64,000 nt of DNA. Origin: Cirrosporium novae-zelandiae (lineage: Eukaryota). Below are positions 44,590 to 64,000 of this stretch, in pieces. The stretch lies in the NCBI GenBank assembly GCA_026023565.1, contig JAPETS010000031.1, positions 124,001 through 188,000 of the forward strand, in the 5' to 3' direction. The stretch's first letter is position 1. Each line of letters starts with the position of its first letter. The position numbers and the translations under genes were made by a program. A model generated the notes under the pieces. That model ran no database searches. It saw only the letters and a program-made list of their open reading frames with translations, and had not been told where the DNA came from.

Positions 44590-45612
44590 GATGCACAATG
44601 CATGTAAGAATCCGCATCCACTTCAAAAGCTATCCGATAGGGCTATAGTTGAGGTTCCTGTGGGAAGTGGTCTAGGCTCTGTCTACCTGAGAGATGAGAC
44701 TAGCCGATCTAGTTTTGTCATTCATAAAGGAGCCTTTAGGCTGGTGGGGGTATTCCGTAGAGGAAGGAAGCTTCCAGAGGTTGAAGTGATGGATGCTGTT
44801 AAGAAACTTAGGCTTAGTTCTTTAGTTGCACCGCAACGAACAGCAGGTGCTTTACCTCCTGTGATAATTAGTATATCCTTGAATACCAGCGATGTCTTTC
44901 ATACGTCAGGAGAATGGCACAATCATTAGATTTTGACCAAGTAATCCCATCGGCTTACATTCTTATCAATGACACCTAATATGCTGTTTAGAACGCCTTG
45001 TTCCACCTAAATCATATAAAATATCTTCATGGGGGCTTACTGGTGTCTCTATCACCTAAAGTCACATATTAGAGTAAATAGGTAACACCTACTTTACAAG
45101 CCATAAAATCGTCTCATATACATGACCCAATGTAATAGTTACAGCCAGTAAGCTCTTTCCATACTATTCAAAAGTCCAAACAAATGAAATGATCCATTAA
45201 GTGTTAGGGGGGGCATGATTGTTCCTTCTGCTTGAAATGCAAAGCATAGATGCCAGCACTAAACAACTGAACATTTCGATAGCTTAGAAAGATGTTAAGA
45301 ATATTGGTCAGTCTTTCCGGTGAAATAGTCCATGCCATCATAAAGAGTTTAATAAAACGATCTAATAGAGATGCAGATATCGAAATTAGAGGGCTCAAAA
45401 GGACGTTGAGAAATCAAAGAAAGCCTTGATCTTCATAACGCCACTTCTATTCTCTTAGTAGCGTAGAATACTCTGGATTCTGAAAACAAGGAAGCAATCG
45501 TCCAAAACATCTAAACATACGATAGACCCCAAACCCTAGCGCCGCATGCCTATGTGAAAAGTCGTCGAAACCAGTTCGTGTTAACAGCTTCAAAGCCTGG
45601 TAATTTCGTCCA

Positions 45613-46228
45613 TTATACCATTGCATGGGTTCGGGTCCATTCCCTAGCGGTTTGGATCGCCGCAGGTTCATCCTCCTTCCAACGTTGAGCAACATCGTTT
45701 GCTAGAGGGTCATCTGGATTTGGAGCTCCTAGTAAAGCTTGAATAGATAGCAAGATCGTACGTATTTGAAGGGCAGGGGACCAGTTGCCTGTATTGTGTT
45801 AGCTATATTGTCTAAGGCTTAGTGTGGTATTGAGTAATACTCTTAAGAACGTCCAAACATATCCGTCCAAGCTTGTCAATGTTGGGGTGATAGATCTTGG
45901 TCAAGAATCGGACTTTGGGAGGAGTCATTGGATAGTCGTCAGGGAGAAATAACTCGAGCTTGAATATACCACCTACATAGTCATTTAGAATCCTATCATA
46001 ATCGGGAAGGGGTAGCAAATACCTTCATAGGGAGAAGAAGAAGGGCCGTGGATCCTGACGTCAAAATATCTAAGATTGTCTTCATGCGGTATGGCGCTAA
46101 TACCCGGCACTCTTATCATTCCATCATATCAGCATAGGCGTATGAAACCATTCCAGCATGATGGAAGTAGCATACGGTTCTGCCATGAGACGCTCTGTCT
46201 CTTTGATAATTCGTTTAGGTAAGGCCAT
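45613..46228 (-). CDS. UBC13: Ubiquitin-conjugating enzyme E2 Ubc13, 4 exons
   Basis: [18 protein letters not shown] / [18 protein letters not shown] / [28 protein letters not shown] / [33 protein letters not shown]. Confidence 0.97.
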
Positions 46229-47016
46229 TTTGTCAAATCTTCGAAACAGGGCAATGCGAAAGTCGACAAAAACGATGTAGAGATGATGCTAAAGACTGCA
46301 GGAAGTGGGAATTCTCTTATACAAAGAAATGCTGATTAGTAGATGAATACCTACTAGTGAATTCGATTGGGAAAGTGGGATGGGTGAGTGAATACCTTAA
46401 GGTAGGATAAGGCGAGATGATATGAATAGGTTGAAACCAAGGGTAAACTAAGTAAAAACCAACTGAGTGCCTAAGCTAGGCGCATTATTATACTATCGAC
46501 GAAATGTAGAGTAATATTCCCAAGGTTTGAGTGATTTTGCCAAGGCACTGTAGAAGATAGAAAGCCCACAACTCCAGTGGATGCACGTGGTTAACACTGT
46601 TATGTTTCTTTCTTTCATCCGACCCCACCAGTGCACCAGTCCAGTATTGTACTTGTACTGTACTATACTATACCAAACGGAGCCATGGCCTGTGGCTTGC
46701 CGGCCGATCACCAAGAAATTCCATCCCCCGGGAGCTCTTCAACTTTCCATACAGACCACATCTCGTGTACCATAGCACCATAGTTATTTGGTACCATTCA
46801 TGCCTGTTGATTTGAGCTTTATTAATTCGATGAATGGATTCAAGTTACACTCCTTTCGGCCCTTTACCTCATAATAGCCACCATTGATTACTTGGGAACC
46901 CGAAATGCCTGCCATCTGGACCAAATTCAAGGAAGATAATTGCTTGAATCCTGGTTGAGAATATCCGGAGAGGTGCTTGGGCATTTTGCACTAGAAGTAC
47001 AATAAATTTGGAGAAT

Positions 47017-50000
47017 ATGGATGCTTCTGGGAAACCAAAGGGGCCTTCATCGGCCTTCGAAAGTCCCACATTTGGTGAAGACAGCTCCTTTCGAGTCCAG
47101 CAGCCTGTCGGTTCCATGTCAATATCACCATGTGGTCGAGATGTTGTTCTAGCTTCGTACATCCCCCCCATATATACACAAAGATGCTTAGATTTTGCTA
47201 ACTTCCGTCATATATAGGAGGGCAGGCCTTCATATTGTCGATCTTGACTCACCTTACTCTCCGCCAAGATTCCTCCCTCACCATACCATGTGGGAAGTCG
47301 CAGACGTTCAATGGTCACCTTTTTCGGCAAGGGATAGTTGGGTGGTTAGCACCTCTAACCAGAAAGCCCTTGTATGGAACCTAGAAATGAAAAGCCCCGA
47401 AGATTCTATAGAATATGTTCTGCATGGACACTCGCGAGCTATTACAGATATAAACTTCTCTGCACACCGTCCTGAGATATTGGCAACATGTGCTGTTGAT
47501 AGTTTTGTTCATTGCTGGGATCTTCGGTCACCCTTACGGCCAGTCTTGACTTTTTCCGATTGGTTTGCCGGCGCGACCCAGGTGAAATGGAACAGACTAA
47601 ATCCGCATATTATTGCATCCTCCCACGACAAGTATCTACGCATATGGGATGATCGAAAGGGGGCTTATCCATTGAAATCGATTGAAGCACATGATACAAA
47701 AATTTATGGACTAGACTGGAATAGATTTCGCGAAACGGCAATAGTCACCTGCTCATTGGACAAAACCATTAAATTTTGGGATTATACAAATACCGATGAT
47801 GAACCGGAGCCAGAAAGGGTTATAAAAACGCCTTTTCCAGTCTGGAGAGCTAGATACACCCCTTTTGGCCGAGGGTTGTTGGCTATGCCGCAGCGAGGAG
47901 ACAATGATTTATATCTTTACCATCGGGACCTGGGTGATGGTATGCCAAAGGTTGATACGGTTACCCCAGCTCATAGCTTCCCCGGACATCAAGACCAAGT
48001 TAAAGAGTTTGTTTGGCGGAGTAGAGGGTCGATAGCCGATGACCGAGTTGATAATCGAGAATTCCAGCTAGTATCCTGGGGTAAAGATCAATATCTTCGC
48101 CTCCATCATGTGGATAAGTCTATCATGCAATCGGTTGGCTATGAGATTGGGACCAAGGTTAAGGAAATACCAAAATTATCACGAGATGGGGCAGCTTACA
48201 GGACCTTTCGAGATGATCCCGAATCTGCCACTCCACAGGGAACTTCATCTAACAATTATAGTCACTTGGAGGCATCCAGGTCATCTGGCTCGGGAATGTT
48301 GGGGACTGGTATGAATAAGATACAAATTCCTCTTGCCCGGAGCTGGATTGGTGGAGGTTTAGCCAGCACGCGAACAGGGATGCACGGGCGAGTGAATGTT
48401 CGACAAGATGCCAATCCAATTGCTTGGATGAGGGGCGTGAAAATTGGTAGACGGGACCACGTTGGGTATGGCCGACATGGAAATCTACGATACGGCAGGC
48501 AAGGAAGCATTAATACTCACGTCGAATGGGACCGTATCGAAAGCTTGGGGGACGAAATTACTTATGTCGGCGACAAGTTTACAAGAGTGGATTTTGAATC
48601 CGTTAACATTCACAGTAGGACTGCCACAGCTACTATGAATGGACCATGGGGGGTGAACGGTGAATCAATCTTTATAAAAGTTAATATGGATTTTCCTCAG
48701 GACTATCCAGAGAAAGAGCTACCCAAGTTCACGCTTGAGCAGACTGCTTCCTTAACGGAGGATATTGTTTCTAAAATAACTGCGGAAGTTAAGACAATAT
48801 CTAAAGCTTACGTCAAGCAGAAGCAAGGATGTCTCGAAGCTGTTCTTCGTTATTTACTAGGCGAGTGTGACCTCGAGAATAGTATTGCATGGTTTCGCGA
48901 TGAAGTTCCCGACGAGCCCGAAGGTCTTACTGAGGACGTTGCAAGTTCAAGCGACGAAGATGATGGACCAGGCAACTTCCAAACCCATGGTCTTGATATG
49001 AGCGGGTCTGGGTCCTTGGGTGTTGCAAATGTTAGTGCCAATGTTCCTATACCGAAGAGATGCGGTGCTGTTTGGGCAAAAGATGGGCGCTTGGTATGCT
49101 TCTTTCCGCCCAAAATTAGTGATTTCTCCCTTCTGTCTAATCCATTGCCACTGAAAGACGGCGATCGATCATCTAAGAGCGAGCGGATATTTGAAGGGTT
49201 TGGCCGCTTTTCTTCTGGATCACCTGGGCCAAGTTTACGGAAAAGCAATATACGCTCTATGGATGATGAGAGCTCTGAATCGTCTGATGATTCTTTTACG
49301 TCGTCGTCCTCGAGCTCTTCAGAATCCTCGGAGCTTACTGCAACGCTTCCGGATCGCTACCAACCCCCGTACCCATGGCGAGGGGGGGTTGACTTGCAGC
49401 AATCTCAGATAACGGATTTATCGCAGCGATCGGAATCTGGGATTGGACTTTCTCGATCAACACCATCGACTGGGCAAGTAGTAGTGTCACTTCGCAACTT
49501 TCAGGCTCTCCTTCCTGCCAAGCCAATACTGGCAAAAGAGTATAAGATATTTGGACAGGGGCCGGACGTGGCAAAACATAATTCTGGCGTAGCTGCCAAA
49601 CATGGGAATGAAAACCTGGCAAAGATATGGGATTTCATAGGGCTTATTTTACATAACAAGGTCCCTCTCACTATTGCTCCAGAACCTGACGGGTTTGAGG
49701 ATGTTCTTGTGATGGCGAAAAGTAGTTTAGGTATTCTACTGGGAATGGAAAACGGGGCTGCCCTACCTTCCGATAGTGAGAGCCAGTCATCAAAAACGGT
49801 TACACATGGACGAGTTCGCTGGGGTCAAAGCCCTCTAGGAGGCCGGTGGTTTGTGAACGCTCTGTAAGTTCAAGATCATTGATTGTTGTTTTCGAGGGCT
49901 AACCATTTCAGTTTCGACCATTTTGAACGTCTCGGGGATGTTCAAATGCTGGCGATGATGTCTTGCATCTTCACCGAAGCTAAGGCCGAGGAACATAATT

Positions 50001-51412
50001 CACATAGTGTAGCACAATTGAAGCTCCCTCAATCGTTAATGCCGCTACAAACCCCTGCATTCTCTATCGATTATTATCCATCTCCGGGTGTAGCAGTAAG
50101 CCTACGCAGGATTCCTCGAATCTCACCAACCTCAAATCATCCAATGTTTCCTTCAAACATATTATACGAATCCATTAAATCTCCAAGTCATAACTGGTCT
50201 TCAAACGGATCGACCACTCCTCAACTGAGTGGGGCTACACCACCAACTCGCCTTGCCCGAAAGAATTCAGATCGATCGGAGTACTCAGTCTACAGCCTCA
50301 ACCCGTCTCCCGACCAACGTCTTAGCCGGCGAGGCACTTCTACATTTGCGAATGCGTTCAAATCATTTGCTTCGGCCCCTTCTTCACCGCCGGCTGGGTT
50401 TATGCAAAAGCGAGCCAGCCCTTCTGGAAGCATTTTGGAGGAGAGGAGTGCCAACTCAGGTTGGGAGACTGTTCCACATTCTGCAAATCCATCCGTACCA
50501 AACTCCAACGCTCCTTCCAACGCCCCATCTTCATTAGCTACAGGATCAGTGTCTAGTGGAGAGGTTGCAGCTAATCCGAATAAGCTAGGTCTTAAGCTTG
50601 CTTTCAAAAACCAAAATCTTTTTGATGATGACGGATATGCTAGTGTGCCGCTTCTTGACCCATCTCGACAATGGAAATACCAATCATACAGAGCCTCTTA
50701 TGCAGCTCTACTTCTTGTATGGGGCTTTCCTTTGGCTCGGACAGAAATACTCAAGTTTGATGGGTTGGCACCCTACTTTGTCAAGGCTAAAGATACAAGT
50801 CTGGAAGATACAGGTACCGGGGTGGCCGCAATCCTTCGCAAGAAAGCTGAAAGCTCAAGTGCCGGAAGCATTGGGGGCCTCATCTTCCGACAGCATTGTA
50901 GACGATGCGGCGAACAAGTCTTGGAGAAACAAAAACCAGGAGCTCGTGGAAAATACTATGAATGCAAAAGCTGTCAACGACCAGCGAAGCAAATTCCATG
51001 CAGTATATGCGAGGAGGTCATTCGAGGCTTGTTCGTACCTTGCCTAGAATGTGGTCACGTCACACATGTGAGCTGTTATGAAAACAGGCTCAAATATGAG
51101 AGAAATAGATATTCCGAGAAAGACAAGAAACCTGAATGTAGTTCCGGATGTGGTTGTCGATGCTCTGAGCACTCTTCGATCCAACTCCCTTGGCCAGAAT
51201 CGCGTAATGTCAGTTCGGATGCCCTTTCAGACGAAAAGAACGGACTTGAGAAAATTAGCGAAGAGCCGGACGGATCAGACCCTTGGGAAAAAGTGAATTG
51301 GAATCCGCTTAGTCGAGGTGCTGTTTCAGGGTTACGTCGAGGCTTATCTTTAAAGGCATCCGATCCAATATTACGGAAAATGGCAAATCTGAAAAGAGAA
51401 CAGACTCGTTGA
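47017..51412 (+). CDS. MTC5: SEACAT/GATOR2 subunit Sea3/Mtc5 (WDR59): WD40 + RWD + C-terminal RING-like, 3 exons
   Basis: ATG 47017; introns 47157-47217 and 49864-49911; WEVADVQWSP, HGHSRAITDINF, GATQVKWNR WD repeats; GPWG..FPQDYP RWD; DVQMLAMMSC; CSIC...CGH...C.SGCGCRC. Confidence 0.95.
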
Positions 51413-51784
51413 AAGATAAATTCTTTTAGGGGAGGTATTAGAATCAGGAATTTTAGGAGGGCATTTGAAAAACTTTGTTAAGATACCCGTTATCGCATAA
51501 TGTCAATTGAAATACTAGATTTTAGCTGCTTAGCCGGCCGCTTATCAGATCGATTGATCTCTATATATTAATACCATTCCAAAGTATGCAATTATAAACA
51601 ACCTAGACACCCTCTTTCGAAGAGTTATATGATTAATCCAAGAATTAGATTGATTCTGAAATCAATGAATTGCGATATCAATCAATGCATGTGTGTTGCG
51701 TTATCTAATATGCAGGAAGGCAGCCTCTTTATTTCTTTATTGAAGTGTGTAAAAAAAGTTGTGGTTCAATATATTTTTTTGAAT

Positions 51785-51990
51785 CAATAGGGAGGGAGAG
51801 AGGTGGTAAAAGGACAATAGGATATATATTTTTCTTCAATAGCTCACTCAATACCTCAATAAGAACTTTTTTTTTTAAATCAATACTACCTTTTCTCTCA
51901 ACAATAGGAGCAAGATTTCCTCGTTTCCTAACCTATTGACCACCACCATTGCTATTGATCACCATTGCTATTGTTGCTTATAATCAATAG
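51785..51990. promoter_or_regulatory. Cluster of eight CAATAG/CTATTG boxes (HMG-box / mating-type-factor-like sites)
   Basis: CAATAG at 51785, 51815, 51837, 51902, 51985; CTATTG at 51933, 51952, 51968; three near-matches (51849, 51857, 51881). Confidence 0.55.
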
Positions 51991-52331
51991 CAAAAAAAAA
52001 GTTTCCTGAGCAAGGTCATTTATTTAAACATCTCCTTCCTCGTGTCCTCTTCCTCTTCTTCTTTTTCTCCAACCATCTGTTTCTACCCGTCAACTTTCAT
52101 CTACTGCTATTACCACTACCACCACTATTCATTCTTCTTCATAACATTCATCCCCAAGCAATCAAGCAAGCCAAGTTTTTCACCGTCTTTAAACTACATC
52201 CTTTCAATTCTCTTCTCTTCATTCTTCAATCACATAACAGCAAATCTCTACTTCTTTTTCTTCCTCTTCAATCCTTTAAGATTCCCAAGTTGTTTTTTGA
52301 TATAAATAACTTCCTTTGAATCCCATCAAAA

Positions 52332-53783
52332 ATGGATCCAATGGAGTATGAACAGTTGGAAGAAGGGGAGATCCCAGAGAGCGAGAGTGGAAGTGGAAGC
52401 GGCGGGACCGCGAAGTCAAAGGCGGTGGTCCCTCCACCACCACCACCACAGGAGGAAGCTGGTCCTTCTTCTAGTGGAGGTGGTGTTGGGGGAGATCCAC
52501 TACGGAACAGAGGCGCGCCGGTTTACTTACCTATATACAGCAATGCCAATGAGCCGACCAATCCAGCTGTAGGTTTCACTGGCGGGCCTTCTTCTGAGAC
52601 CTTGGTTCCCACTGGTGGGAAACGATCCAGGGCTGATTTTGAGGGTTCCGGTCAGTCGAACAGTCAGATGGCGGTTCCTGCTGGTGAGAGTTCGGCTTCG
52701 GGGTCGGGTAAGAGTGTGGTGATGGAGCAAGGGGAGAGCAGCAACAGCGGCAGCAACAGCAACAGCAGCAGCAAGTTGACGACGGCGGTAGCCGATATTC
52801 CTACCGCTGGTGAGAGTGCCCAATCAGAGGCTGGTCCTCCAAAAACACCTCCTTTCTATTCTACCCAGCTCCAGAACGAGAGGGGTGACGCTTCTGGTCC
52901 TCCAATCAATGATCCGTTCTCGCTCAGTCCGAGCGAAATGTTGACGACCACCTCCCAGGCTGTGGCGCCTATCCCGACAACCACCATGTCCTCACAGCCA
53001 GAAGTAGGTCAGCACACACCATTCCATGGACTAACTACCATGACAACCAACAATGGCCAGAGTGCTCCTCCTCAGCCTTCTCAGGCCCCACTTCAAGTGG
53101 CTGGTCCACTTCCAACAACCCCTGCGCCACATCCTGGAAACGACCTCAATGCATCTTTACTGGTACCAGGAAATCCTCCTGACAACGCATCGCCCCTAGA
53201 AAGGAACGTCGCGGACCTGCTGCATGTAGCAGACGCATATCCCGACTTCTGGGATCTGGTAGTTGGCCTATTCTTTCAAGAAACAAGGGTGAACCCGATA
53301 GAGGTCTTTGGCTATGGCTATGGCCGGATCATGTCTGATACTTTTGTTGGCCATGTACCCAACCTCTACTGGCAGGATATGAAGGCGAAAGGCCTTCTCA
53401 GTGATCTGGATTTCTGGCAAGTCCCAGATGAAATGAGGAGCAAAGTGAACCATGTGGAGGAGTGGATCAAGGAGACGGGATGGCAGGTGTGGGGAGAAGG
53501 GTTGCGACGCTTCTTCTTTCCCGAAATGTGCCTTGAATATCATCAATACCAGAAGATGTGTGCATTTAGAGGAGAGCGCATGGGCCTATGGTGGCGTCTA
53601 GATGGCATTTTGACAAAAGCAGGATGGCGAAAGCCTCAGGATGGTGCAAACAAGCCAGACGAAGAATTTGCATTGATCATTACCATGCCTGACTGCCCAG
53701 AGAAGGAGAAGAAGTTGGCGGAGTGGAGAGAGATGTGTCCACAATATGTGGATGCAAGTCTAAAGAGTCCAGGTTTCAGGTAA
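52332..53783 (+). CDS. Orphan protein (disordered N-half plus Trp-rich helical domain); probably exon 1 of a fusion with the NUP53 ORF
   Basis: 483-aa ORF, good start context (caaaaATG); its stop lies inside AG|GTAAGC, a canonical donor at 53780. Confidence 0.7.
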   Translation: MDPMEYEQLEEGEIPESESGSGSGGTAKSKAVVPPPPPPQEEAGPSSSGGGVGGDPLRNRGAPVYLPIYSNANEPTNPAVGFTGGPSSETLVPTGGKRSRADFEGSGQSNSQMAVPAGESSASGSGKSVVMEQGESSNSGSNSNSSSKLTTAVADIPTAGESAQSEAGPPKTPPFYSTQLQNERGDASGPPINDPFSLSPSEMLTTTSQAVAPIPTTTMSSQPEVGQHTPFHGLTTMTTNNGQSAPPQPSQAPLQVAGPLPTTPAPHPGNDLNASLLVPGNPPDNASPLERNVADLLHVADAYPDFWDLVVGLFFQETRVNPIEVFGYGYGRIMSDTFVGHVPNLYWQDMKAKGLLSDLDFWQVPDEMRSKVNHVEEWIKETGWQVWGEGLRRFFFPEMCLEYHQYQKMCAFRGERMGLWWRLDGILTKAGWRKPQDGANKPDEEFALIITMPDCPEKEKKLAEWREMCPQYVDASLKSPGFR

Positions 53784-54041
53784 GCTCCCATTTTTCTTTA
53801 TCATTCATTCTTTGATTTTTTTTGAAATTATTTCTGCATCTTTTCTTCTTTTATTGGGAGGTGGTCATAAGTATGGTTGGTGTCGCTGAAAGGTTCGGGG
53901 AGTCGGAACAAACAATGCCAGGCCTCTCCGTTAGCGCGACTAAATTGTTGCTCGGGCCAATTTTTGTTTACAAGTTCAATGTTCTCTCAGCTCAAATTCA
54001 TCCATCACTTCAACTTACCAACTCACTTTTTTCTGCACAGG

Positions 54042-55481
54042 TCTTATGCAATACACAAACGCCACTGGGTTGAAGCTAGAATCCAACTTGGAAAGACCCA
54101 GGTAGAAAATCGTCTCCGCCTTCGCAAAGAGCGTAGAGAGGAACGAGAAAGTCGCTGGAAAGAAGATTCAAAGATGCATCCTGACAATAATAAAGGTGCA
54201 TTCGGCAAGCGACGGAGTAGCTTAAGACAGCGAGGGAGAAGTCGAGCAGCTTCAAGAACTGCAACTCCAGCAAGGAAGGAAGATCCAAACATCAAGGTCA
54301 TCGACGATCTCTTCGGCCCCGTTGCAACCAGTGACAACGACCGCAATACTCAATCCAAGCAACAGCTTCAGCGATCAACCTCAGTCAGCTCATTCACCGC
54401 ACCCTTTACCTCTACCGATTCCAATGCATCTGTGAGCGATGCACCAGCTGTGATTCAGAAAGAACCAACAGAGGTCATACTGTATGGTTATGGATCTGAC
54501 GAGGCATACGCTGCGATTGACAAGTACGAGCGAATCTCCAATGGCATAATCTGCGAAGACTATCCCCGGAATCCACCTTTCCAATACCAGAAATTCAAGT
54601 ATGCCTACAATGCAGACGGAGGAATGAGGCCGAGGCCTCTTACATTGGCCGAGAAGAAAAAGGCAAACGTTTACGCTGGTGGGAAACATTGGGTCAAGGT
54701 TACTTTCGAGTCTGCTGAGGCCGCCGACACAGCTGTCTGGTATTCGCCTCAGACCATTCAGGGCCACAGTGTCTATGCCCAGCTTTATCGTGGTATTGGA
54801 CCCGAACAAGATGCTCCTATCCTTGAAGGAGCTCTCCCCCCATCACTATCTGGTAGTCGGCGTCACTTGCAGTCTTCGCAATCAAGCAATCTCCTCCACA
54901 CTCAACGACCATCACGAGGTGCAGGTCTCCCTCGATCTCATACTACGCCCGACATGTTACAAACATGGTCCCGACGTGCTTCCATGGCGACACAGATTGC
55001 TTCTGGTGTAAGCGGATCCTTTGACGAAGGGCTTATGCCTCCGAGCACCTCCGCCTCGTCTATAACTGCCACCTCGGCAACAGCCACTGCACCAGACATT
55101 GAATATCCCTCTCTTCGTCACCGTACCGCTCCACAAATGGAGTCCCAAAGCACCTCCTCCACGGCCACGATCACACAAGCCCCCAACCCTGATATGATGA
55201 CACACATACCAACTGTCCGCCGCTACCATCTCCTCCCAGCTGAGCAAGCTCTCCTTCCACAACCTTCCTTTTGGCAACGCTTGCACCAGCAATTTCCCTG
55301 GCTATTTAGCGATCCAATCGGGGACAGGCTTCCGCTACTCGACAATGGCGAATTCGATTGGGATTCTGCATCTTGGTACTGGAAGCTCATGTATACACTA
55401 GACATGGTGTTCTGGTTCTGCGACGTGTGTGGTCTGAAAGAAAGGCCAGATGAATTTGTCGATTTTGGTGACGAGAACTAG
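54042..55481 (+). CDS. NUP53: Nucleoporin Nup53/Nup35 (MPPN-RRM domain, C-terminal amphipathic helix)
   Basis: GAFGK..RSR..TATPARKEDP, EVILYGY..YAAIDKYERIS.GIICEDYPR, GKHWVKVTFESAEAA, and C-terminal FDWDSASWYWKL; the start is either ATG 54174 or supplied by the upstream exon. Confidence 0.8.
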   Translation, partial: SYAIHKRHWVEARIQLGKTQVENRLRLRKERREERESRWKEDSKMHPDNNKGAFGKRRSSLRQRGRSRAASRTATPARKEDPNIKVIDDLFGPVATSDNDRNTQSKQQLQRSTSVSSFTAPFTSTDSNASVSDAPAVIQKEPTEVILYGYGSDEAYAAIDKYERISNGIICEDYPRNPPFQYQKFKYAYNADGGMRPRPLTLAEKKKANVYAGGKHWVKVTFESAEAADTAVWYSPQTIQGHSVYAQLYRGIGPEQDAPILEGALPPSLSGSRRHLQSSQSSNLLHTQRPSRGAGLPRSHTTPDMLQTWSRRASMATQIASGVSGSFDEGLMPPSTSASSITATSATATAPDIEYPSLRHRTAPQMESQSTSSTATITQAPNPDMMTHIPTVRRYHLLPAEQALLPQPSFWQRLHQQFPWLFSDPIGDRLPLLDNGEFDWDSASWYWKLMYTLDMVFWFCDVCGLKERPDEFVDFGDEN

Positions 55482-56789
55482 TGCTAAGGTCAATACTGAT
55501 ATTTGCGCGTCGGCACACTTTTTACGTGGAATACTATGAGGCTGCTCAAGACACAATCCAGATGGAATATGTGCATCACAGCCATGTTTGGGCAAGCACA
55601 AGATGTTTTTTAGCACCTACAATCCACTAATTACAACAACCTAAACCCAGCCTCTCGGAGTGTGAGGAAATACCTCACCTACACACGGACTGTCAGTCCT
55701 ATTTATGCTACAACTCCCCCAAACTGACCTCATTTTCAATGCAGGCCTTTCTCCCCGGAGCAAAAAAAAAGCTCCCCAAATAACTTGAACCTAATATCGG
55801 GATGGCGCGAGGGCGCAGCAGAGAGCCATATGGTTGAAATGAATCTGATGATTGAATGTACAGTTGGAAGGTGTTGGTTAAATATAACGGAATGGGGAAA
55901 TGGAAACTAGGATCATGGAATCTTCCTAGGTCTGGGTCTGGGTCTGATTGATAGCGTGTATCAAGACACAGCTATCACCATTAGCATCGTCATCGTCATC
56001 GTCATCATGTTCAGAAGGAAAAAAAGAGAGGGAAGGGAGGAAGGAAGGGAGCACGGCGTTTTACGAGATAAAAGATCGAAATGCGTTTTTTCAAATGGCA
56101 TTTTCACGGAGTTGTCTTTTACTGTTCTCGTCTAGTTGGTTCAAGCTACAGTACTACTAGTATAGCGATCGTGATCTCTAGATTTTTTTTTCTTTTTTTT
56201 GAAAGGCATGATCCGTTAGTGGGAAAATTTTTCAAAATACCCCCCCCGGCCCTCCTACTTGAGGCCTTGATTTAATAAAATGAAATGAAATGAAATCAAT
56301 AGAAATCGTCTTCGATCGTTTCTATTTTCTATTCCCTATATTAGACTGCATAGTCTACACGCCTCCTTCTTCTCCTCCTCACTCCAGTCTCCTCATAAGT
56401 CTCCACCCCCATGGGGTCAATGATGAAATCTAGATTTTCTTCTGGAATGTATATTAGATGTTGTTTCTGGGGGTTGAGATTGGGGTTTGGTGGGTTTGGG
56501 TCTATACGGAAGGGAAAGGGAAAGGGGAAGGGAGAGGGGATGGGGGATGTTAATTGTCACTGTTAGATAGTATTCGACGTTTGTATTCATTAGAAGATGA
56601 AAGAAAGGCTAGTGCAGTGATATTATCCACATCCACATCCACATCTACACCCATAGATAAATAGATAAATACCTAGGTACCTACTACTACTGGAGGTAAA
56701 TAAATCCTTAACTTCACCCAACACGAATAAAATAAAATAAAATATGATAACCCCCATAAGACCCGCCAAAACAATTCCCATTAATTTCA

Positions 56790-58401
56790 TTAATTCCCCT
56801 CCGACCCCTCAAAGACACTGAGTTCCCGTTGCGGATACACCTTCTCATGTGCACCTCTCCCCCCAGACGCCCCCTCCGCATCTTTCCACGCCCACGCCGT
56901 ATCCTTTTCTAGTCCGTTACTTTGGTCGTTGAGAACGTTTACGACGTATTTTCCGATTATGGGGAGGAATTTCCTGTAGTAGGATGGATCGTCTTAGCTT
57001 TGTTGTTGTTGTTTTTTTTGGAAGGGGGGGGGGGTTAAATATACCAGGAATGAAACGACCCCGCCGCAGCCAGGTACAAATTTTGCAACCGTGGATGCGG
57101 GTGTCTAGTAATAAGTTGGTGCTGGGTCGGAGAAATAGAATCCCAGCACAGCCGGTAGAATTCCACTTTGCGGTTATGGCGGACATAGTAAGGCATCAGC
57201 TTGCGGACGATTTCGAGGGTTTCGGCTTGTAGGCGTTTGGGGACGGTGGTGGTTTGGTCTCCGGGGGGTGGGACTGAGATTTTTAAGCCGGAGGAGGGTA
57301 AGGTGATGGTGTTTGTGACGGAGGTGGTGTCGGTGAATTTTAACCAGTTGGATTGCGTGGGGGGGAGGAGGATTTCTCTTGGGGGGTTGTTAGTGGAATG
57401 GATGGACTTGGTGGGGTTGTGGAGACTGGGATATGGTACACATGGAATGATGCTATATACTTCAAAGATAGAAGTACTGGTGGGGTTAAGACTAGGCATT
57501 GGTGCATGGAATATAAGAAAAGTGTTGAAAACTTTCCCATCAACACGTACTGATAACCAGGGGTAGAATACAAATTAAAAATCAGCGACAGACCTTTACC
57601 ACCATATATTACGACAGGCATTTGGTGTAGATATTCCATTTCCTCAGGAGTAAGTTTGTAATGGGCGCAGCAAACCGCAGCAGCAGTCATCTGCTTCTCA
57701 GTCCTGTCTTTTTCGGGCATGGATAGTTCGTCTTCTGTTTTCGACATCAGAAAGCTTGTCCAGGCACCAGTAGCCAGCAACACTTTCGATGCCGTGTAGC
57801 AATGTCCGTCTGTAGTTTGCACTCCTTGGACCCCCGTTTCATTCAAGACCAGCTTGTCTACCTCCCCGACTTCATATTTCACGCCACGAGAAACAGCTTC
57901 TTTCATTAGGATTTCCACTGCAGTGGCAGCATCAGCCCATCCCGCCATAGGATTCCAATACGCCTTTGCAAAGCCCGAGAGATCCAATTCTGAGAGTATC
58001 CCACCCCAGGCTTTCTTTGCTTCCTCAAAAGTCATGTCTTTTGTTTCATCTTCGCGCTCGCTCTCTCTGAAATTCTTTCGAATCCGATCGGTCAGGTCGC
58101 TTCCTTCCTCGTCGAAATATACCCAGCCTGTACGATGATAGACATTGGCATCCTTGAGGATAGGCATGCTAACCCAAGCATCGATGGCTTCAAAGGCCAA
58201 GTCCATATAGAAGCGTACGCCATAGTCTGCGCGGATGATCTTATTGATATCGGTGGACGCAGCTTTAGGAGAGGGAAATGGTGCGCGATCGAGCACCGTG
58301 ATTTTTGATGGATCTGGGTGGGTTAGAGAGAGATGATATGCAGTACTGGTACCGAAGATTCCTCCTCCTACAATTAAGATCTCTGGGGATTCTTGAGCCA
58401 T
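56790..58401 (-). CDS. FAD-dependent sarcosine/L-pipecolate/fructosyl-amine oxidase-like protein, at least 3 exons
   Basis: MAQESPEILIVGGGIFGTSTAYHL, AASTDINKIIRADYG, AGWADA, LATGAWT, RLCWD, AGSFHSWKFLPIIGKYV; stop TAA 56790-56792; first intron boundaries are ambiguous. Confidence 0.88.
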
Positions 58402-59545
58402 GATCAAAGGTTTAGAGACAAGGGTGAGTAGAAAGGTATTCAAAATAAAACACAATGCTTTCAATTAACATGACGATTGACGGTAGGAGATGGAGGATAG
58501 ATAATATATCTCATTTCTCACCACTCCGAAGGGAGTGCGGAGTAAGTGGGGGGAGACGTCAATCAGAGATAAGGCCGATTAAAAATGAAGGGATCCTCAA
58601 GGATTCCCTAGACATCTTTTCTCCGGGAGGGATTTGCTGGAACTTGATATAAGACTCCTTTTGATATCTTTTGAGGTTCTCAATTATCGTAATTGAAACT
58701 CAGATTCAAACTTCACAATGATGAATCAACTATAACAGTAGCATTTGGGTTAAAAAAAGACGTATCAGATATCTTGGCATAGCTGTCTCATTGATGCTAA
58801 CGACGACACAATTGGCCAATTTGACTGAATTCAATCCAGTGGCAATGGGACCCTTGCATTTTGAGATATTGTCGAGATCTTGGAAGAAAAAAAACGAAAA
58901 ACAAACAAACGCCGGTGTAAATACAGTACGCGCGCTATTTACCATCCAAGCACTACTCCACACTAAACGGTGAATCATCTAATTCTCTAGTCCATTCCCC
59001 AATAACATGATCCCTTTAACTCTGGCGTTTATTGGTGCGGGGGGAACCGAACCTTGAAAGTTCTCAGTATCGACTCCCCCCAAGAGTCGCGACAAGATAT
59101 GAAACGCCAACCGCTTCAGGCCATTACCAGAAAAAGCAGCATCTGGAAATAATAATATAACTAACCCAGGCGCGAACCCTGGGGTTCGTGATAACTCGCT
59201 CGATCTATGCCCTGCCATTTCTGCGACAAGAGGCGCAGTACAAGAAAGCCTCAAAAAAGAAAAAAACAAACCTTCCAGGTCTTGAGACATTAAATCGTCC
59301 ATAAATAAATTCTCCAGCGTTGCCCGGCTTGAAGAAGTCGTTCATATTCCCCTTATCTATTCTCTAGCATTTCTGTATTTTTCACTGTCAATTCAGTTAA
59401 GTACATATACTTTCCTTAAATCAGTCCTCATCGTGTTAAAATTGTTCTTGTACCAATTGAAATCTCAACACCTCTATCCAGGGGGTTCCTTCAAAAAACA
59501 AAATTATTCTAATTAATTGGCGGCAAAATCTCACCTCGAGCAAAG

Positions 59546-60478
59546 ATGTTCCATTCAAAAGTATATCTCCTTTTTTCCATAGCCAGCTTTCGCATAGCAG
59601 CAGCAACACCCACCGTCTCCGTCCCATCAGACCTCTCCACCAACTTCAACACAAACTCAATCTCCCTCCAAGTGAGCTACACCAACGACTCCGCCAGCGG
59701 ATTCCTAGATGGCTCCACCCTCACCACGCAAGAAACCTCCCAGCTCCCCATCTTCGCCCTCGGCGACTCCAGTGGCGTCAACACCTCCCTGAAATTCCTG
59801 ATCCTCCTCCTCGACACCACCCTCCCCACAAACCGAACCCTCCACTACCTCCAAACGGACTTCGCCGCCACGGAGATAAAAACCGGCATCGCTTCGGATG
59901 CCCAACCGGCTTTCCCGTATCAGGCACCCGGCACCCTCGGCGAAGCGTCCGGGGCACACGTGTATTCTTTCTTGCTGTATACACAACCCTCCGATTTTCT
60001 CGTCGACGATATCCCGAGCGTGGGCGACGCAATCGATATCGAAAGTTTCCAAAGCGCCAACGGGCTTGATGATGCCGAAGCGGGGGTGGCAATGGTCGTT
60101 GATATCGGGGGTTCTTCCAACACCATCACCGCTTCAGCGGCATCACTCTCCACAGCGAGCGGACTCACCTCCTCACCAGCCATCATCACAACCTCCCTAA
60201 TCACATCCACATCCTCACCCACCATCTCCTCACCCATCTCCTCCTCCAATACCACCACAACCAAAAACCACAACTCCATAGCCCTCTACCCCTCAAGTCT
60301 CTGGCCAACCGCCGCCTCCATCCCTACACCCTCTTCTACGTCCCAAAGCAACTCTTCTGCATCTGCATCCGCATCTATATCGGATGCTGATAGCAATGCC
60401 GCTGGGGTGCCTAGGTATGGAGGGAGTCAGAAGTTTGCGTTTTGTATCATTGCGGTTGCGGTGTGGGGGTTTTTTTAG
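59546..60478 (+). CDS. Secreted PEBP-like protein with S/T-rich stalk and probable GPI anchor
   Basis: Signal peptide, FLILLLD..LHYLQ, PYQAPG..HVYSFLLYTQP PEBP-type motifs, Ser/Thr stalk, DSNAAG omega region and hydrophobic C-terminus. Confidence 0.82.
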   Translation: MFHSKVYLLFSIASFRIAAATPTVSVPSDLSTNFNTNSISLQVSYTNDSASGFLDGSTLTTQETSQLPIFALGDSSGVNTSLKFLILLLDTTLPTNRTLHYLQTDFAATEIKTGIASDAQPAFPYQAPGTLGEASGAHVYSFLLYTQPSDFLVDDIPSVGDAIDIESFQSANGLDDAEAGVAMVVDIGGSSNTITASAASLSTASGLTSSPAIITTSLITSTSSPTISSPISSSNTTTTKNHNSIALYPSSLWPTAASIPTPSSTSQSNSSASASASISDADSNAAGVPRYGGSQKFAFCIIAVAVWGFF

Positions 60479-61495
60479 GGAATTGGGGGGATGGGGGGTT
60501 GGGTAATGGGTATGGGTAATGGGTTTAGGGAGTTTAAGGGGAGAAGGGATGAGAATTGGGGGGAGTACAGCCCATCATCTCCGCAATGTAATATCATGTC
60601 TATGTATATGTATCTATATATCTATGCATGTACGGCTTATACGAACACAAAACAAACAATCATCCACTTTTCATGCACATACTCTTTATCCATCCACTTA
60701 TCCATCTATTTATTTATAATTACTACTCTCATTATCATTATCCTCACCTAGTATAATGCCATATATCATATATCATAATTATCGATTATATAGCCTAATA
60801 TCAGAATACCAGAAAAACCCCTTACATCTTTCTCCATCTCTCTCTCTCTCTCCCTCTCTCTCTTTCTCTCCTATCTACCAATTAGAAAGACAAACCAACA
60901 ACAACTCTCTTTACCTTACCTTACCTACCCAACTAAGCCAAAAAAAAAAGGACATGGGATATCTAATCCACTACCTTGAAGCGGATAGTTCTACAGTACC
61001 CCAGTGTGTGTGTTGGGATATAGATTAGCCTACCCCTGGCTGCGCTGTAATACTTTTTTTTTCTTTTTTTCTTTTAGCTGGGTGATAGGAGGTAAATGAT
61101 GTTTTGCTAATGATAATAATAATAAATATGAATTCGATATATGTACTAAGTACTAGAGGAAGGGGAGAGGGTAGGGGAGTGGAGGGTCGGCTATGGGTAT
61201 GTACATGTACAGTACAGGAAATTACTATATAGTAGGTAGATATGATATATATGATATCTGATTGATGATTGAGTAAGGGAGCGTGCCGGGAAGAGGGTTA
61301 GTTAGTTAATAGTTAATAGTTACCATATCTGCCTATCTATTTATCTATCCTATACAATGCAATGTAATATCTATACAAAATTAGTAAAACGTAGAATAGG
61401 ATGTAGAATATAGTAATGTAGAAATGCAGAGATGGCTCAGTAGACTATGTGTGTGCGAGCTTCTGGAGAAAGAAAGTCTAGTTGCTTAAACTAAT

Positions 61496-61812
61496 AACTA
61501 TAACTATAACTATTACATGTACATGTACTTAAGTACTTAAGTAGTTAGGGCTTCGGTATGTATGTATGTATGTATGTACAGTTCTATCTCTTCAAAACAA
61601 CAACAACTCCCCTCAAGCCTTTATTAATTTCCATGAAAATAGGATTCAGTTGTTTATAGATAATGTCTATAATATCTATCTATGTTCTCTAGTTTTCTCT
61701 AATATAGAAACAAAACAAACCAAAACAAACCAAAACAAACCAAAACAAGCAGAAATAGAAACAGTCCCCATTATGACTGATAAAGAAAGAAAGGAAAGAA
61801 AGGAAAGAAAGG
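61496..61812. repeat. Simple-repeat cluster: (TAACTA)n, (TACATG)n, (TATG)n, (AAACCAAAAC)n, (AAAGGAAAG)n
   Basis: Visible directly in the convergent intergenic region. Confidence 0.8.
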
Positions 61813-62109
61813 ATAAGGGGTGGTGAAGGTTGGTGATTGGATCTTCCCCCCCCCCCCTAAACGAAAAAAAAAACATCAAGAAAAGCAAATTTGATATGGC
61901 TCCAGGCCACCTAGACTGAATGTGCCAGCCATTCTCACGTTTTGTACTTTGATTCCAGAATCTTTGTCTACCGACTTCCCCCCACGCTTCCCCAGTCTAT
62001 AGTATTAGTAAGTTCTTGATTTATCCAGTCAGCTCGACTCCAACTCCACCAGAGATAAAAAAGGGTAAAATTTCCATGATACCGTAACTACCCATGTCAT
62101 ACCATGTCC

Positions 62110-62816
62110 TTACTGCCCTGTGACAGTGGGTGGCTTATTCCAAGCTCGGAGCATTCGTCTTACGGCCTCTGTCCACTGAGAGACAAAGGTTGCTGTAAGC
62201 TGGGAGATCTGGTTCGGAGTGGGGGTATGGCCTCCCCACATTGTTTGTTTTGCGGCTTGGATGCCTGCGTGTGTGGGTATGAGATTGCTGTTGTTGGGGG
62301 GTTTGCCAACGGATTAGCGTTTGATGTGTCTTGGGGTTGCGTTGGATAAGTGAGGAGGAGGAGCTTACAGTTCTTCAATCTTCTTTAGGATCAACCATGC
62401 GTAGTTCCAGCTCCTGGTGCTTGCGGGATCCTCCATAACGCGCAATTTTGCTTCGTCGAGGCACTCGGAGCTGAAGGGGTAGGTCCTGCTGAGACTTCGC
62501 AGCTCGCTTAACATGCTGTTGGAATCGACGTAGTATCTCCAGGCGCTAGTCATGGGCTCGGTGATATCCGGGGTGTCGAAGGCGGCGAGTGTTCTCTCGA
62601 TGCGGCAGAGTTCGCCGAGCGTATTGGCTTTGTGTTGGCGAAGGATGGTAATTAGTTGAGCCTTTGATTCCTATAGACTTGTTTGTTAGGAGATGTTGGA
62701 ATTAAGGGGTTTCGTTCATGGTAGGAAATAGGTACATAGATGAAGCCAGGGTTGAGTTGGCTGGAAGAACTTGTAACGGTGTAACTAGAACTTGAACTTG
62801 ATGTAGTTGGTGGCAT
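62110..62816 (-). CDS. Small hypothetical all-helical protein, 3 exons
   Basis: MPPTTSSS..GFIY / ESKAQLITILRQHKANTLGELCRIER..AWRYYVDSNSMLSELRSLSRTYPFSSECLDEAK..SWNYAWLILKKIEE / NLIPTHA..MWGG..FVSQWTEAVRRMLRAW; both introns have GT, CTAAC/CTAAT branch and AG in the correct phase. Confidence 0.8.
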
Positions 62817-64000
62817 TGTAGGGAGTCTTTTAGGCGTTCTTAGAATGGGTAGAAAGGGAATCCAAAAGATCAATTGGACACTTCCGAGAAGTTGGAAATG
62901 TATCACAGCAGTGGAAGACAATAGCTTTAGATATAACGAAATGCTGGAGGAGTTCTCTGCTCACGATTCAGGGTGACGCCGTGCCGTTACCCGGAAGTTC
63001 GAAATCTTCAACACGGTGATAATGATTATGAGAGTAATCGACGGCTTGGAGGCAACGAGGAGGATAACGGAGAGGAGTGATATTGAGGTAATAAATGAAG
63101 AAGATAGTAAAAGTGTAACGTAAAAAGAAGAACTTGTATAATTGCAGAATACGGGAGGAACATCCCTATATAAACTTTCCGATACCATATACAGCCGCAA
63201 AAGTCTCTAAAACTATCACAGTCCTAGGATAGAGAATCACCCCTACAGAATGAAACAACAAAAGTATTTCGGTGAAATAAACGAGGCGATGTCCGTTGTC
63301 AGATCTCTCATCAGATGTAGAAATAGTACTACGATGCGTAGATCTTTGTAACAATCACGAGTAGATAGTAGATAGAGAAAACACCAAACTAACTATACGA
63401 AAATATTTAAACAAGGACACCGCCATGACGAGAAACGCCGCTGAGAATGGGGAAATTCAATCCTGAAATGCTATTTGCTATCTGCTAGTCTGAAACTATG
63501 CCTTAGATAGTTGAGGAGGAGAATAAATATGTCAGCCCAAAGCAAGAAAGTTGGTTGGACAGGGAAAGGCATGCTGTGCAGTGTAGAAGAGCAAGGGAAC
63601 TGTGGAGCAGCAGCTGGAAGAAGCCACAGTGATTACCTGATATTGCTGGATATAGTCCTCCAAGCCCAGGAAAAGACACGCGGGGCTGGAGTGTCGATCC
63701 CAAGAGTGCTGAAAGAGATGACCGATACTACAGTAACTAGCCACTTGGAAAGGAACATTAGATGGTGGGGATAGCAAACTAGACACGAAGGAGAACAAGG
63801 GACATCCCTTCATTATTGTGAGTGTAACTGGATACTGTGGAGTAACTGCAATCAAACGGTTAATAAGTAAATCTCAGGATACCAGGGAGAATAATTAAAA
63901 ATGTCTAGAAGAGGAGGATACGTTGTAACTGTTGTAGTCAGCATGATTAAGTCCAAGTCAGCATTAAGGATAGTTACCAGGCAAATTCCCAAGATCGGGT

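What the first reader, a model, noticed from the sequence alone, without database searches (positions are those of the whole stretch)
52332..55481. Orphan exon splices in frame onto NUP53: candidate chimeric nucleoporin of about 962 aa
Seen: the stop of the 483-aa orphan ORF sits inside a consensus donor (TTC AG|GTAAGC, 53780). A pyrimidine-rich acceptor (actcacttttttctgcacag, 54040) follows. Removing this 261-nt intron gives AG+G=Arg and continues exactly in the NUP53 frame (..SPGFR-SYAIHKRHWVEAR..RKERREERESRWKEDSK-MHPDNNKGAFGK..). The two ORFs are under 400 bp apart, which leaves little room for a terminator plus promoter. Knowledge: fungal Nup53 normally has only a short disordered N-terminus. 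Inference: a novel domain has been grafted onto an inner-ring nuclear pore protein. Three products are possible: orphan alone (intron retained), fusion, and short Nup53 from ATG 54174 (caaagATG). With the upstream CTATTG cluster this could be a mating-type- or sexual-stage-specific pore isoform, for example a nuclear-identity tag in ascogenous hyphae (speculative).
Basis: partly seen in the sequence, partly recalled or inferred. Interest (0 to 1): 0.82.

Follow-up and report, generated by a model that had tools for sequence, protein, structure and literature searches.

The report
Nup53 gene with conserved extra head
The predicted splice joins an upstream reading frame to the nuclear-pore protein Nup53, but the same 962-residue model is already deposited and similar long forms occur in other lichen-related fungi, so it is a recurring, unstudied Nup53 variant still lacking RNA proof.

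Summary
The 483-codon ORF ends in TTC AG|GTAAGC. A pyrimidine-rich acceptor lies 261 nt on, and splicing continues in the Nup53 frame. The resulting 962-aa protein matches letter for letter a deposited model, "hypothetical protein M1834_005374", from a Cirrosporium novae-zelandiae MAG.

The downstream half is a genuine Nup53: C. thermophilum Nup53 RRM at E 2e-32, plus NUP53_C.

The upstream ORF is not an orphan. Its last ~195 residues form a helical domain with no Pfam family, which I call "X". X also heads 9 other long Nup53 models from at least five classes. In 9 of 80 metagenomic Nup53 loci X lies directly upstream on the same strand, with no other shared synteny.

In 3 of 4 lineages with intact X the X ORF's stop sits inside GTAAG[TC], followed by an in-phase acceptor.

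Against an obligatory fusion:
- No RNA run was available.
- Nup53 keeps possible start codons of its own.
- X has decayed in one lineage while Nup53 stays intact.

Verdict: a real single gene is probable (~0.7). It is a recurring, undescribed Nup53 variant, not unique to this organism. The mating-type idea has no support.

The parts
51785..51990 (.). Cluster of CTATTG/CAATAG hexamers 340-550 bp upstream of ATG 52332. Candidate promoter element of the gene; function untested.
   Evidence: 8 of the window's 32 matches fall in these 206 bp. The count for the whole window is not enriched (expected 34.9).
52332..53779 (+). Exon 1 (residues 1-483, the last codon split). About 285 residues of low-complexity S/G/P/T/Q-rich sequence, followed by domain X.
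   Evidence: It is identical to the N-terminal half of the deposited P0001. No Pfam family was found.
53181..53779 (+). Domain X: a conserved, all-helical domain of about 195 aa with no named family. Motifs: GLxFQ, LRxAGW, MPxGxEK, RE(E)SPxxF.
   Evidence: HMM built from other long Nup53 models hits here at E 9.5e-45. AF2 model: pLDDT 65.4, 11 helices. No structural match was found.
53780..54040 (+). Predicted 261-nt phase-2 intron: GTAAGC ... ttttttctgcacag. An in-frame TAA lies at 53781-53783, so a retained intron would end the protein right after domain X. The intron contains a CCAAT box at 53957.
   Evidence: GC content is 0.395, against 0.535 and 0.515 in the flanking coding sequence. No RNA family and no unusual fold were found.
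54041..54173 (+). Start of exon 2: a K/R/E-rich linker of 44 codons (SYAIHKRHW...RWKEDSK). It stands where other lineages carry a linker plus the MQVHAVPE..LPW block.
   Evidence: Homology to other linkers was not demonstrable. The MQVH block is absent from the window.
54174..55481 (+). Nup53 proper (435 aa counted from ATG 54174, the possible internal start, plus the TAG stop).
   Evidence: 176 homologues at E<=1e-3. Most are 350-520 aa, and their match begins at about this residue. NUP53_C (PF28376) is recorded.
54195..54317 (+). GAFGK...TATPARKEDP block, which resembles the N-terminal linker region of C. thermophilum Nup53 crystallised with Nic96.
   Evidence: 5hb3_B, E 0.1 (weak). The block is conserved as GPFGK..TPAKKEDP across the family.
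54465..54821 (+). Nup35-type RRM domain (residues 625-743).
   Evidence: 5hb7_A, C. thermophilum Nup53 RRM, E 2.2e-32, covering 119 residues.
55194..55277 (+). Motif like the R3 (Nup170-binding) fragment of C. thermophilum Nup53 (residues 868-895).
   Evidence: 5hax_B, E 0.0073.

Best explanation
Window 52332-55481 is most likely one gene of two exons. One transcript starts upstream of ATG 52332, and a 261-nt phase-2 intron (53780-54040) is removed. The product is a 962-aa protein made of four parts:
- a ~285-aa disordered head;
- a ~195-aa helical domain X with no known family;
- a short charged linker;
- a complete Nup53 (RRM, R3-like motif, NUP53_C tail).

This X-Nup53 architecture is old. 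It is shared by members of Xylobotryomycetes, Xylonomycetes, Candelariomycetes, Coniocybomycetes, Lecanoromycetes and several unplaced lichen-related genera, and it has been lost or has decayed in others.

Inferred, not shown:
- X is carried to the inner ring of the nuclear pore by Nup53.
- Because the stop lies inside the donor, a retained intron would yield free X.
- ATG 54174 could yield a plain Nup53.

In Cirrosporium the usual opening block of Nup53 (MQVHAVPE..LPW) is missing, so here the fused form may be the main or only full-length form.
For: 1. The spliced product is the deposited model, letter for letter.
2. Ten of the 12 listed Nup53 representatives of 600 aa or more carry X directly before Nup53. 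The named ones come from records with four kinds of locus tag: L228DRAFT (Xylona), M18xx MAGs, KY384 (Bacidia), and LQ352/Q9202 (two Teloschistes MAGs).
3. X matches 9 of 80 metagenomic Nup53 loci. It is always directly upstream on the same strand and never elsewhere in the flanks. No other gene is shared between 20 kb of the window and these loci.
4. The X ORF ends with its stop inside GTAAG[TC] in the window, in L015 and in L052/53/56/62, all in phase 2. L015 and L052/62 also have CTAAT branch motifs at -30 and -22 and pyrimidine-rich in-phase acceptors. The control gave 2 of 19 donor-like true stops.
5. In Teloschistes-type sequences the linker is conserved at protein level upstream of any Met (P0029 against P0034).
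6. Between L052 and L062 the predicted intron differs at 14 of 207 positions and the linker at 5 of 169. Four of those 5 are third codon positions (I worked out the codon positions by hand from its list).
7. The gap between the X stop and ATG 54174 is only 390 nt.
Against: - No transcript evidence of any kind is available.
- The window's intron lacks a CTRAY branch motif. It holds a CCAAT box 215 nt before ATG 54174, and that ATG has a good context (A at -3).
- X-bearing lineages keep a Met at or about 10 residues before the [MT]Q[VIF]H block, so Nup53 could start on its own.
- In L034/L035 only a stop-interrupted remnant of X is left, while Nup53 is intact and starts MQVH. L056 has an in-frame stop in X. 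So Nup53 works without X.
- Relatives have short models: Vezdaea acicularis 468 aa, Chaenotheca gracillima 438 aa.
- Wrong merges of Nup53 models do occur: the Aspergillus niger group model is MFS + Nup53.
- The intron-versus-linker divergence test is not significant (Fisher p = 0.10).
- Open frames upstream of Nup53 are no longer in X loci than in X-less loci (p = 0.23).
- The window's linker shows no detectable homology to other linkers.
Confidence: 0.68

Rival explanations
1. There are two separate genes. A 483-aa protein X ends at TAA 53781, and Nup53 is transcribed from a promoter in the 390-nt spacer and starts at ATG 54174 (435 aa). On this reading the 962-aa model, and the other long models, are gene-prediction merges of two neighbours that have stayed adjacent.
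For: - ATG 54174 has a good start context, and a CCAAT box lies at 53957.
- Homology to ordinary Nup53 begins at about this residue in most hits.
- Nup53 survives where X has decayed (L034/35).
- A conserved Met lies near the start of the Nup53 block in X-bearing lineages.
- Merged models do occur (MFS + Nup53 in Aspergillus).
- A contig ORF of 168 aa (P0155) holds X alone and ends where X ends.
Against: - A spacer of 180-390 nt is very short for a terminator plus a promoter.
- Adjacency and orientation are kept across at least five classes, while no other neighbour is kept.
- 3 of 4 X ORF ends are donor-like, against 2 of 19 in the control, and they come with branch and acceptor signals in phase.
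- The linker is conserved upstream of any Met in P0029/P0034.
- No free-standing X protein was found, although those searches were weak.
Confidence: 0.2
2. The locus makes both forms. A fused X-Nup53 mRNA comes from the upstream promoter, and a plain Nup53 comes from an internal promoter or start (ATG 54174, or ATG 53979 giving 500 aa). Intron retention gives free X. The ratio may be regulated.
For: - The stop sits inside the donor.
- The intron is unusually long and contains a CCAAT box.
- The Nup53 frame is open for 101 codons upstream of ATG 54174, reaching into the intron.
- The evidence for the fusion and the evidence for an independent Nup53 start are both real (see the other entries).
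Against: - ATG 53979 has a poor context (T at -3), and what follows it reads like a pyrimidine tract (MFSQLKFIHHFNLPTHFFLHR).
- Long open frames upstream of Nup53 are also common in loci without X.
- There are no expression data.
Confidence: 0.1

Closest known systems
Nup53 of Chaetomium thermophilum (PDB 5HB7/5HB8 RRM, 5HAX and 5HB3 fragments; linker nucleoporin of the inner ring; orthologues Nup53/Nup59 in yeast, NUP35 in vertebrates)
   Same: The RRM matches at E 2.2e-32 over 119 residues and the R3-like motif at E 0.007. The protein also has the GPFGK..TPAKKEDP block, the conserved C-terminal tail, and NUP53_C (PF28376). In C. thermophilum Nup53, R1 binds Nup192, R2 binds Nic96 and R3 binds Nup170 (passages read).
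   Different: The window's protein carries about 527 extra N-terminal residues (a disordered head, domain X and a linker). It lacks the MQVHAVPE..ERA..LPW block that opens most Pezizomycotina Nup53.
Long Nup53 models of Xylona heveae (XP_018186404.1, 888 aa), Bacidia gigantensis (XP_044668001.1, 778 aa), Teloschistes flavicans (KAI4251684.1, 896 aa), Sclerophora amabilis (KAI9839708.1, 1247 aa) and others
   Same: All share the order disordered head, X domain, linker, Nup53. The X domains are alignable, with pairwise E-values from 1e-5 to 1e-40. All are annotated only as hypothetical or uncharacterised.
   Different: The others keep the [MT]Q[VIF]H.VP..ER..LPW block between the linker and the GPFGK block; Cirrosporium does not. 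Cirrosporium's X has an insertion of about 20 residues, lacks the terminal C..D..CG motif, and is only 16-25% identical to the others.
Merged Nup53 gene models such as the Aspergillus niger / A. welwitschiae 803-aa 'Major facilitator superfamily domain-containing protein'
   Same: It is a long model with Nup53 at its C-terminal end.
   Different: Its N-terminal part is a transporter, not X (no X match). It appears in one species group only, which is what a prediction merge looks like. X-Nup53 recurs across classes.

Membership tests
Nup53/Nup35 nucleoporin family | Nup35-type RRM domain | tested here: met
   5hb7_A (C. thermophilum Nup53 RRM), E 2.2e-32, residues 625-743. The local Pfam copy gave no PF05172 hit. 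One search shows that only 10% of the nearest ascomycete Nup53 cluster carries PF05172.
Nup53/Nup35 nucleoporin family | Conserved C-terminal region (Pfam PF28376 NUP53_C), which ends in the tail taken to be the membrane-binding amphipathic helix | tested here: met
   PF28376 is precomputed on P0001 and named NUP53_C. The tail is conserved in alignments. Membrane binding itself cannot be tested with these tools.
Nup53/Nup35 nucleoporin family | R3 motif (binds Nup170 in C. thermophilum) | tested here: met
   5hax_B, E 0.0073, residues 868-895.
Nup53/Nup35 nucleoporin family | R2 region (binds Nic96 in C. thermophilum) | tested here: inconclusive
   5hb3_B, E 0.1, residues 535-575. The block is conserved across the family.
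Nup53/Nup35 nucleoporin family | N-terminal opening block MQVHAVPE..ERA..G..LPW of Pezizomycotina Nup53 (near or within R1, the Nup192-binding region) | tested here: not met
   tblastn with 29 such blocks found nothing at the locus. The alignment shows only RKERREERESRWKED at that position. I did not map this block onto the R1 residues 31-67.
X-Nup53 long form (unnamed architecture) | X domain directly N-terminal to Nup53 in one reading frame after splicing | tested here: met
   X HMM at E 9.5e-45 on 53181-53780, and an in-phase intron. Splicing itself is not testable here.
FG-repeat nucleoporins | Arrays of FG / GLFG / FxFG repeats in the disordered part | tested here: not met
   I read the disordered head (residues 1-285) of the sequence returned by eye and saw no FG dipeptide repeats; no pattern search was run.

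The most novel reading that the evidence does not exclude
X-Nup53 is an ancient fusion that was present in the common ancestor of several leotiomyceta classes. It tethers an unknown helical domain to the inner ring of the nuclear pore. Splicing decides the outcome: because the stop sits in the donor, X is made either free or pore-bound. The fusion has been lost or taken apart repeatedly. In Cirrosporium the fused head has replaced the usual N-terminal anchoring block of Nup53. Between two close lichen-fungus relatives the X exon is far more diverged than the rest of the locus, which leaves room for a recognition or identity role.
Probability: 0.2. Interest if true: 0.62.

Novelty: new variant of a known kind. 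Interest (0 to 1): 0.42.

Why it matters
Nup53 is one of the flexible linker proteins that hold the inner ring of the nuclear pore together, and its fungal form is a structural reference. A conserved folded domain of unknown family on its N-terminus, present in at least five classes of mostly lichen-related ascomycetes, would be a lineage-specific addition to a very conserved machine.

It offers a testable question: what does a pore-tethered helical domain do, and is its release controlled by splicing?

It matters for annotation too. These models are all labelled hypothetical, and some relatives may be wrongly split or merged.

I found no paper that mentions Nup53 together with lichens, Lecanoromycetes or Xylona (the 10 rows listed all show 0 occurrences of Nup53). 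None of the 10 listed papers on Nup53 domain architecture or fusion has a title or abstract opening that points to it. In one of them I searched the text for Nup53, Nup35, 'domain gain' and 'fusion', and the passages returned did not mention it.

Tried and rejected
- RNA evidence: no RNA holder was listed for 52300-55500, so read laying could not be used.
- Whole genome: none is held for this window.
- Free-standing X proteins: a single-sequence search over lengths 265-846 aa found none. A profile search over 88-846 aa recovered only P0027 and missed known members (P0003, P0028, P0053), so it was too insensitive to show absence. My alignment's disordered first row probably swamped the word index.
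- X fold:
  - Profile against PDB sequences gave only a chance-level row at E 0.13.
  - Foldseek's best match was E 0.73.
  - VIA-align wide gave a best Z of 4.1, rmsd 4.1, 70 residues aligned.
  - Atlas look-alikes scored 0.92 or below to unrelated phage or bacterial clusters, with TM 0.39 or below.
  - The model itself is middling (pLDDT 65.4).
- Linker homology: BLASTP of the 44-aa linker against P0013 gave E 1.1. A linker HMM scored below zero in all three frames.
- Hidden MQVH exon in the window: none.
- Open-frame test: upstream open frames are not longer in X loci (p = 0.23).
- Intron-hosted snoRNA or structured RNA: Rfam matches were far below gathering score (13.8 and 16.7 bits), and the fold z-score was 0.43.
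- General hypervariability of X: seen between L052 and L062, but not between two Teloschistes flavicans MAGs (2 differences in 175 residues).
- Earlier scan notes: none were relevant.
- Source paper of the MAG and its annotation method: not found in the library. That such MAG models are ab initio predictions without RNA is my recollection only.
Full report
**1. The observation**

- ORF 52332..53783 encodes 483 aa. Its TAA overlaps a donor, ttcag|GTAAGC (intron from 53780).
- The tract actcacttttttctgcacag ends at 54040, so the intron is 261 nt, a multiple of three and in phase 2.
- The junction codon AG+G is Arg. The frame then runs through SYAIHKRHWVEAR...KEDSK-MHPDNNKGAFGK into the ORF that ends at 55481.
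- Six AG sites would keep the frame. This one has the best pyrimidine tract (0.75 over 20 nt).
- The intron is AT-richer (GC 0.395) than the flanking coding parts (0.535 and 0.515). It has no CTRAY branch motif; ACTCAC at -16 is the nearest thing (the ACTCAC reading is mine).

**2. It is already a deposited model**

A search for longer proteins returned one hit, P0001. It is 962 aa, 100% identical, and named [quoted passage not shown]. Its sequence shows exactly the junction ...SPGFR-SYAIHK.... The organism belongs to Xylobotryomycetes. That such MAG models are ab initio predictions without RNA support is my recollection; I could not find the source paper.

**3. The downstream half is Nup53**
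- Against PDB sequences, residues 625-743 match the C. thermophilum Nup53 RRM (5hb7_A, E 2.2e-32).
- Residues 868-895 match the Nup53 fragment of 5hax (E 0.0073), and residues 535-575 match that of 5hb3 weakly (E 0.1).
- The precomputed Pfam family PF28376 is NUP53_C.
- The local Pfam copy found nothing. Only 10% of the nearest Nup53 cluster carries PF05172.
- In C. thermophilum, R1 (residues 31-67) binds Nup192, R2 binds Nic96 and R3 binds Nup170 (passages read).

**4. The upstream half is not an orphan**

A full HMMER scan with the 500-aa downstream ORF gave 176 homologues at E<=1e-3, of which 150 were listed.
- 138 of the 150 are under 600 aa. Those with a complete N-terminus mostly open with MQVHAVPE..ERA..G..LPW.
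- Twelve are 600 aa or longer.
- In 10 of those 12, the part before Nup53 contains a common domain of about 175-195 aa, which I call X. Pairwise BLAST E-values run from 1e-5 to 1e-40, and an X HMM finds all ten (P0053 only weakly).
- The window's residues 290-483 are this domain (E 9.5e-45).
- The named members are Xylona heveae, Pycnora praestabilis, Piccolia ochrophora, Sclerophora amabilis, Bacidia gigantensis, Thelocarpon superellum, Teloschistes flavicans (two MAGs) and Vezdaea aestivalis. Together with Cirrosporium that makes five classes plus unplaced taxa.
- The other two long models are different: an MFS-transporter + Nup53 merge in the Aspergillus niger group, and a partial Chaetothyriales model.

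**5. Genomic loci**

A metagenome scan with a Nup53 alignment gave 80 loci.
- The X HMM hits 9 of them: L014 (partial), L015, L027, L034/35, and L052/53/56/62. The hit is always directly upstream of Nup53 on the same strand and nowhere else.
- Of the 47 loci with at least 1.5 kb of upstream sequence, 8 have X and 39 do not.
- A tblastx of window 44001-64000 against six X-bearing loci (one for each distinct sequence) found only X and Nup53 in common.
- So the pair has stayed together while its neighbours changed.

**6. Splice signals are conserved**

| Locus | X ORF end (donor) | Branch motif | Acceptor | Intron length |
|---|---|---|---|---|
| window | AG\|GTAAGC | none (ACTCAC at -16) | CACAG | 261 nt |
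| L015 | GG\|GTAAGT | CTAAT at -30 | TTAG | 90 nt |
| L052/53/56/62 | AT\|GTAAGT | CTAAT at -22 | TGCAG | 207 nt |
| L027 | GAA\|GTGTAG (weaker) | none found | TTAG | 84 nt |

- The first three donors are all in phase 2.
- In L015 and L052/62 the pyrimidine-rich acceptors continue in the frame of the linker and the Nup53 opening block.
- L027 also has an in-phase acceptor.
- As a control, only 2 of 19 distinct true Nup53 stop codons sit in a GT[AG]AG[TC] context, against 3 of 4 X ends. By my arithmetic that is a binomial p of about 0.004.

**7. Is the linker coding?**
- P0029 (an ORF from a contig) and P0034 (Teloschistes) are 62% identical overall. They align through the linker from 50-60 residues before the Nup53 block, upstream of any Met in P0034's linker.
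- Between L052 and L062 the predicted intron has 14 mismatches in 207 positions. The linker has 5 in 169, which is like the exons (2.7-3.1%). Four of those 5 are third codon positions. The contrast is not significant (Fisher p = 0.10).

**8. Evidence against an obligatory fusion**
- No RNA run could be listed.
- X-bearing lineages keep a Met at the MQVH position or about 10 residues before it.
- In L034/35 only a remnant of X with an internal stop is left, next to AT-rich sequence, while Nup53 is intact and starts MQVH. L056 has a stop inside X.
- Relatives in the same genus or class have short models: Vezdaea acicularis 468 aa, Chaenotheca gracillima 438 aa.
- In the window a CCAAT box lies at 53957, and ATG 54174 has A at -3.
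- Long open frames upstream of Nup53 are as common in loci without X. The window's 101 open codons before ATG 54174 therefore prove little.
- The window's linker has no detectable similarity to other linkers.

**9. A peculiarity of Cirrosporium**

The opening block MQVHAVPE..LPW is absent from the locus. In the alignment only RKERREERESRWKED stands there. If translation started at ATG 54174, the protein would lack that block altogether. In the fused form the X head and the charged linker stand in its place. Whether this block is part of the Nup192-binding R1 region was not mapped.

**10. What X is**

X matches no Pfam family (only PF28376 is precomputed on P0001 and P0027). It also has no PDB sequence match. 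The AF2 model from 10 sequences is all-helical with 11 helices, pLDDT 65.4 and pTM 0.54. No structural match is better than chance. The function of X is therefore inferred only from its position: a folded helical module on a long disordered tether, delivered to the inner ring by Nup53.

**11. Verdict**

The most likely reading (about 0.7, including the variant in which both forms are made) is one spliced gene encoding X-Nup53. The architecture is shared by several classes, and it is present in public annotation but not in the literature I could search. The claims of an orphan exon, of a graft unique to this organism and of a mating-type role are not supported. It is a new variant of a known kind and of moderate interest. 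The decisive data are junction reads.

Noticed in passing
window 51785-51990: Eight CTATTG/CAATAG hexamers lie within 206 bp, 340-550 bp upstream of ATG 52332. The window as a whole is not enriched (32 found, 34.9 expected). One copy sits in CTATTGTT, the reverse complement of AACAATAG, which resembles an HMG-box site; that resemblance is from memory and untested.
   Followed up: partly
L052:4500-5100 against L062:4500-5100: Between two close relatives from lichen-type metagenomes, the first X exon differs at 16-23% of bases, while Nup53 differs at 2-5%. Both ORFs are intact, with pS 0.29 and pN/pS 0.45. The cause could be an old haplotype, introgression or fast evolution. The pattern is not seen between two Teloschistes flavicans MAGs.
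   Followed up: partly
L034:5400-5900 and L035 (same): Only a remnant of the X domain's C-terminal motifs survives, with an internal TGA and AT-rich sequence upstream. Nup53 downstream is intact and starts MQVH. This is an example of X being lost in place.
   Followed up: partly
L056:4950-4952: There is an in-frame stop inside X in a contig otherwise nearly identical to L052/L053. It could be a pseudogene allele or an assembly error.
   Followed up: no
P0014, P0151, P0152 (Aspergillus niger group): Models of 791-803 aa join a major-facilitator transporter to Nup53. This is probably a gene-prediction merge that has been propagated into RefSeq and UniRef.
   Followed up: no
P0102, P0048, P0166 (protein models): Several Nup53 models seem to read through the conserved intron that follows ..LPWxxEW(P/A)E; odd hydrophobic insertions start right after that motif. 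I infer this from the protein sequences alone.
   Followed up: no
window 49946-51412: The upstream neighbour is a 488-aa ORF with a Cys-rich C-terminal part (CRRCGEQ..CKSCQ..CSICEE..CLECGH). It reads like a RING or zinc-finger protein. It has no counterpart in any of the 80 fetched loci.
   Followed up: no
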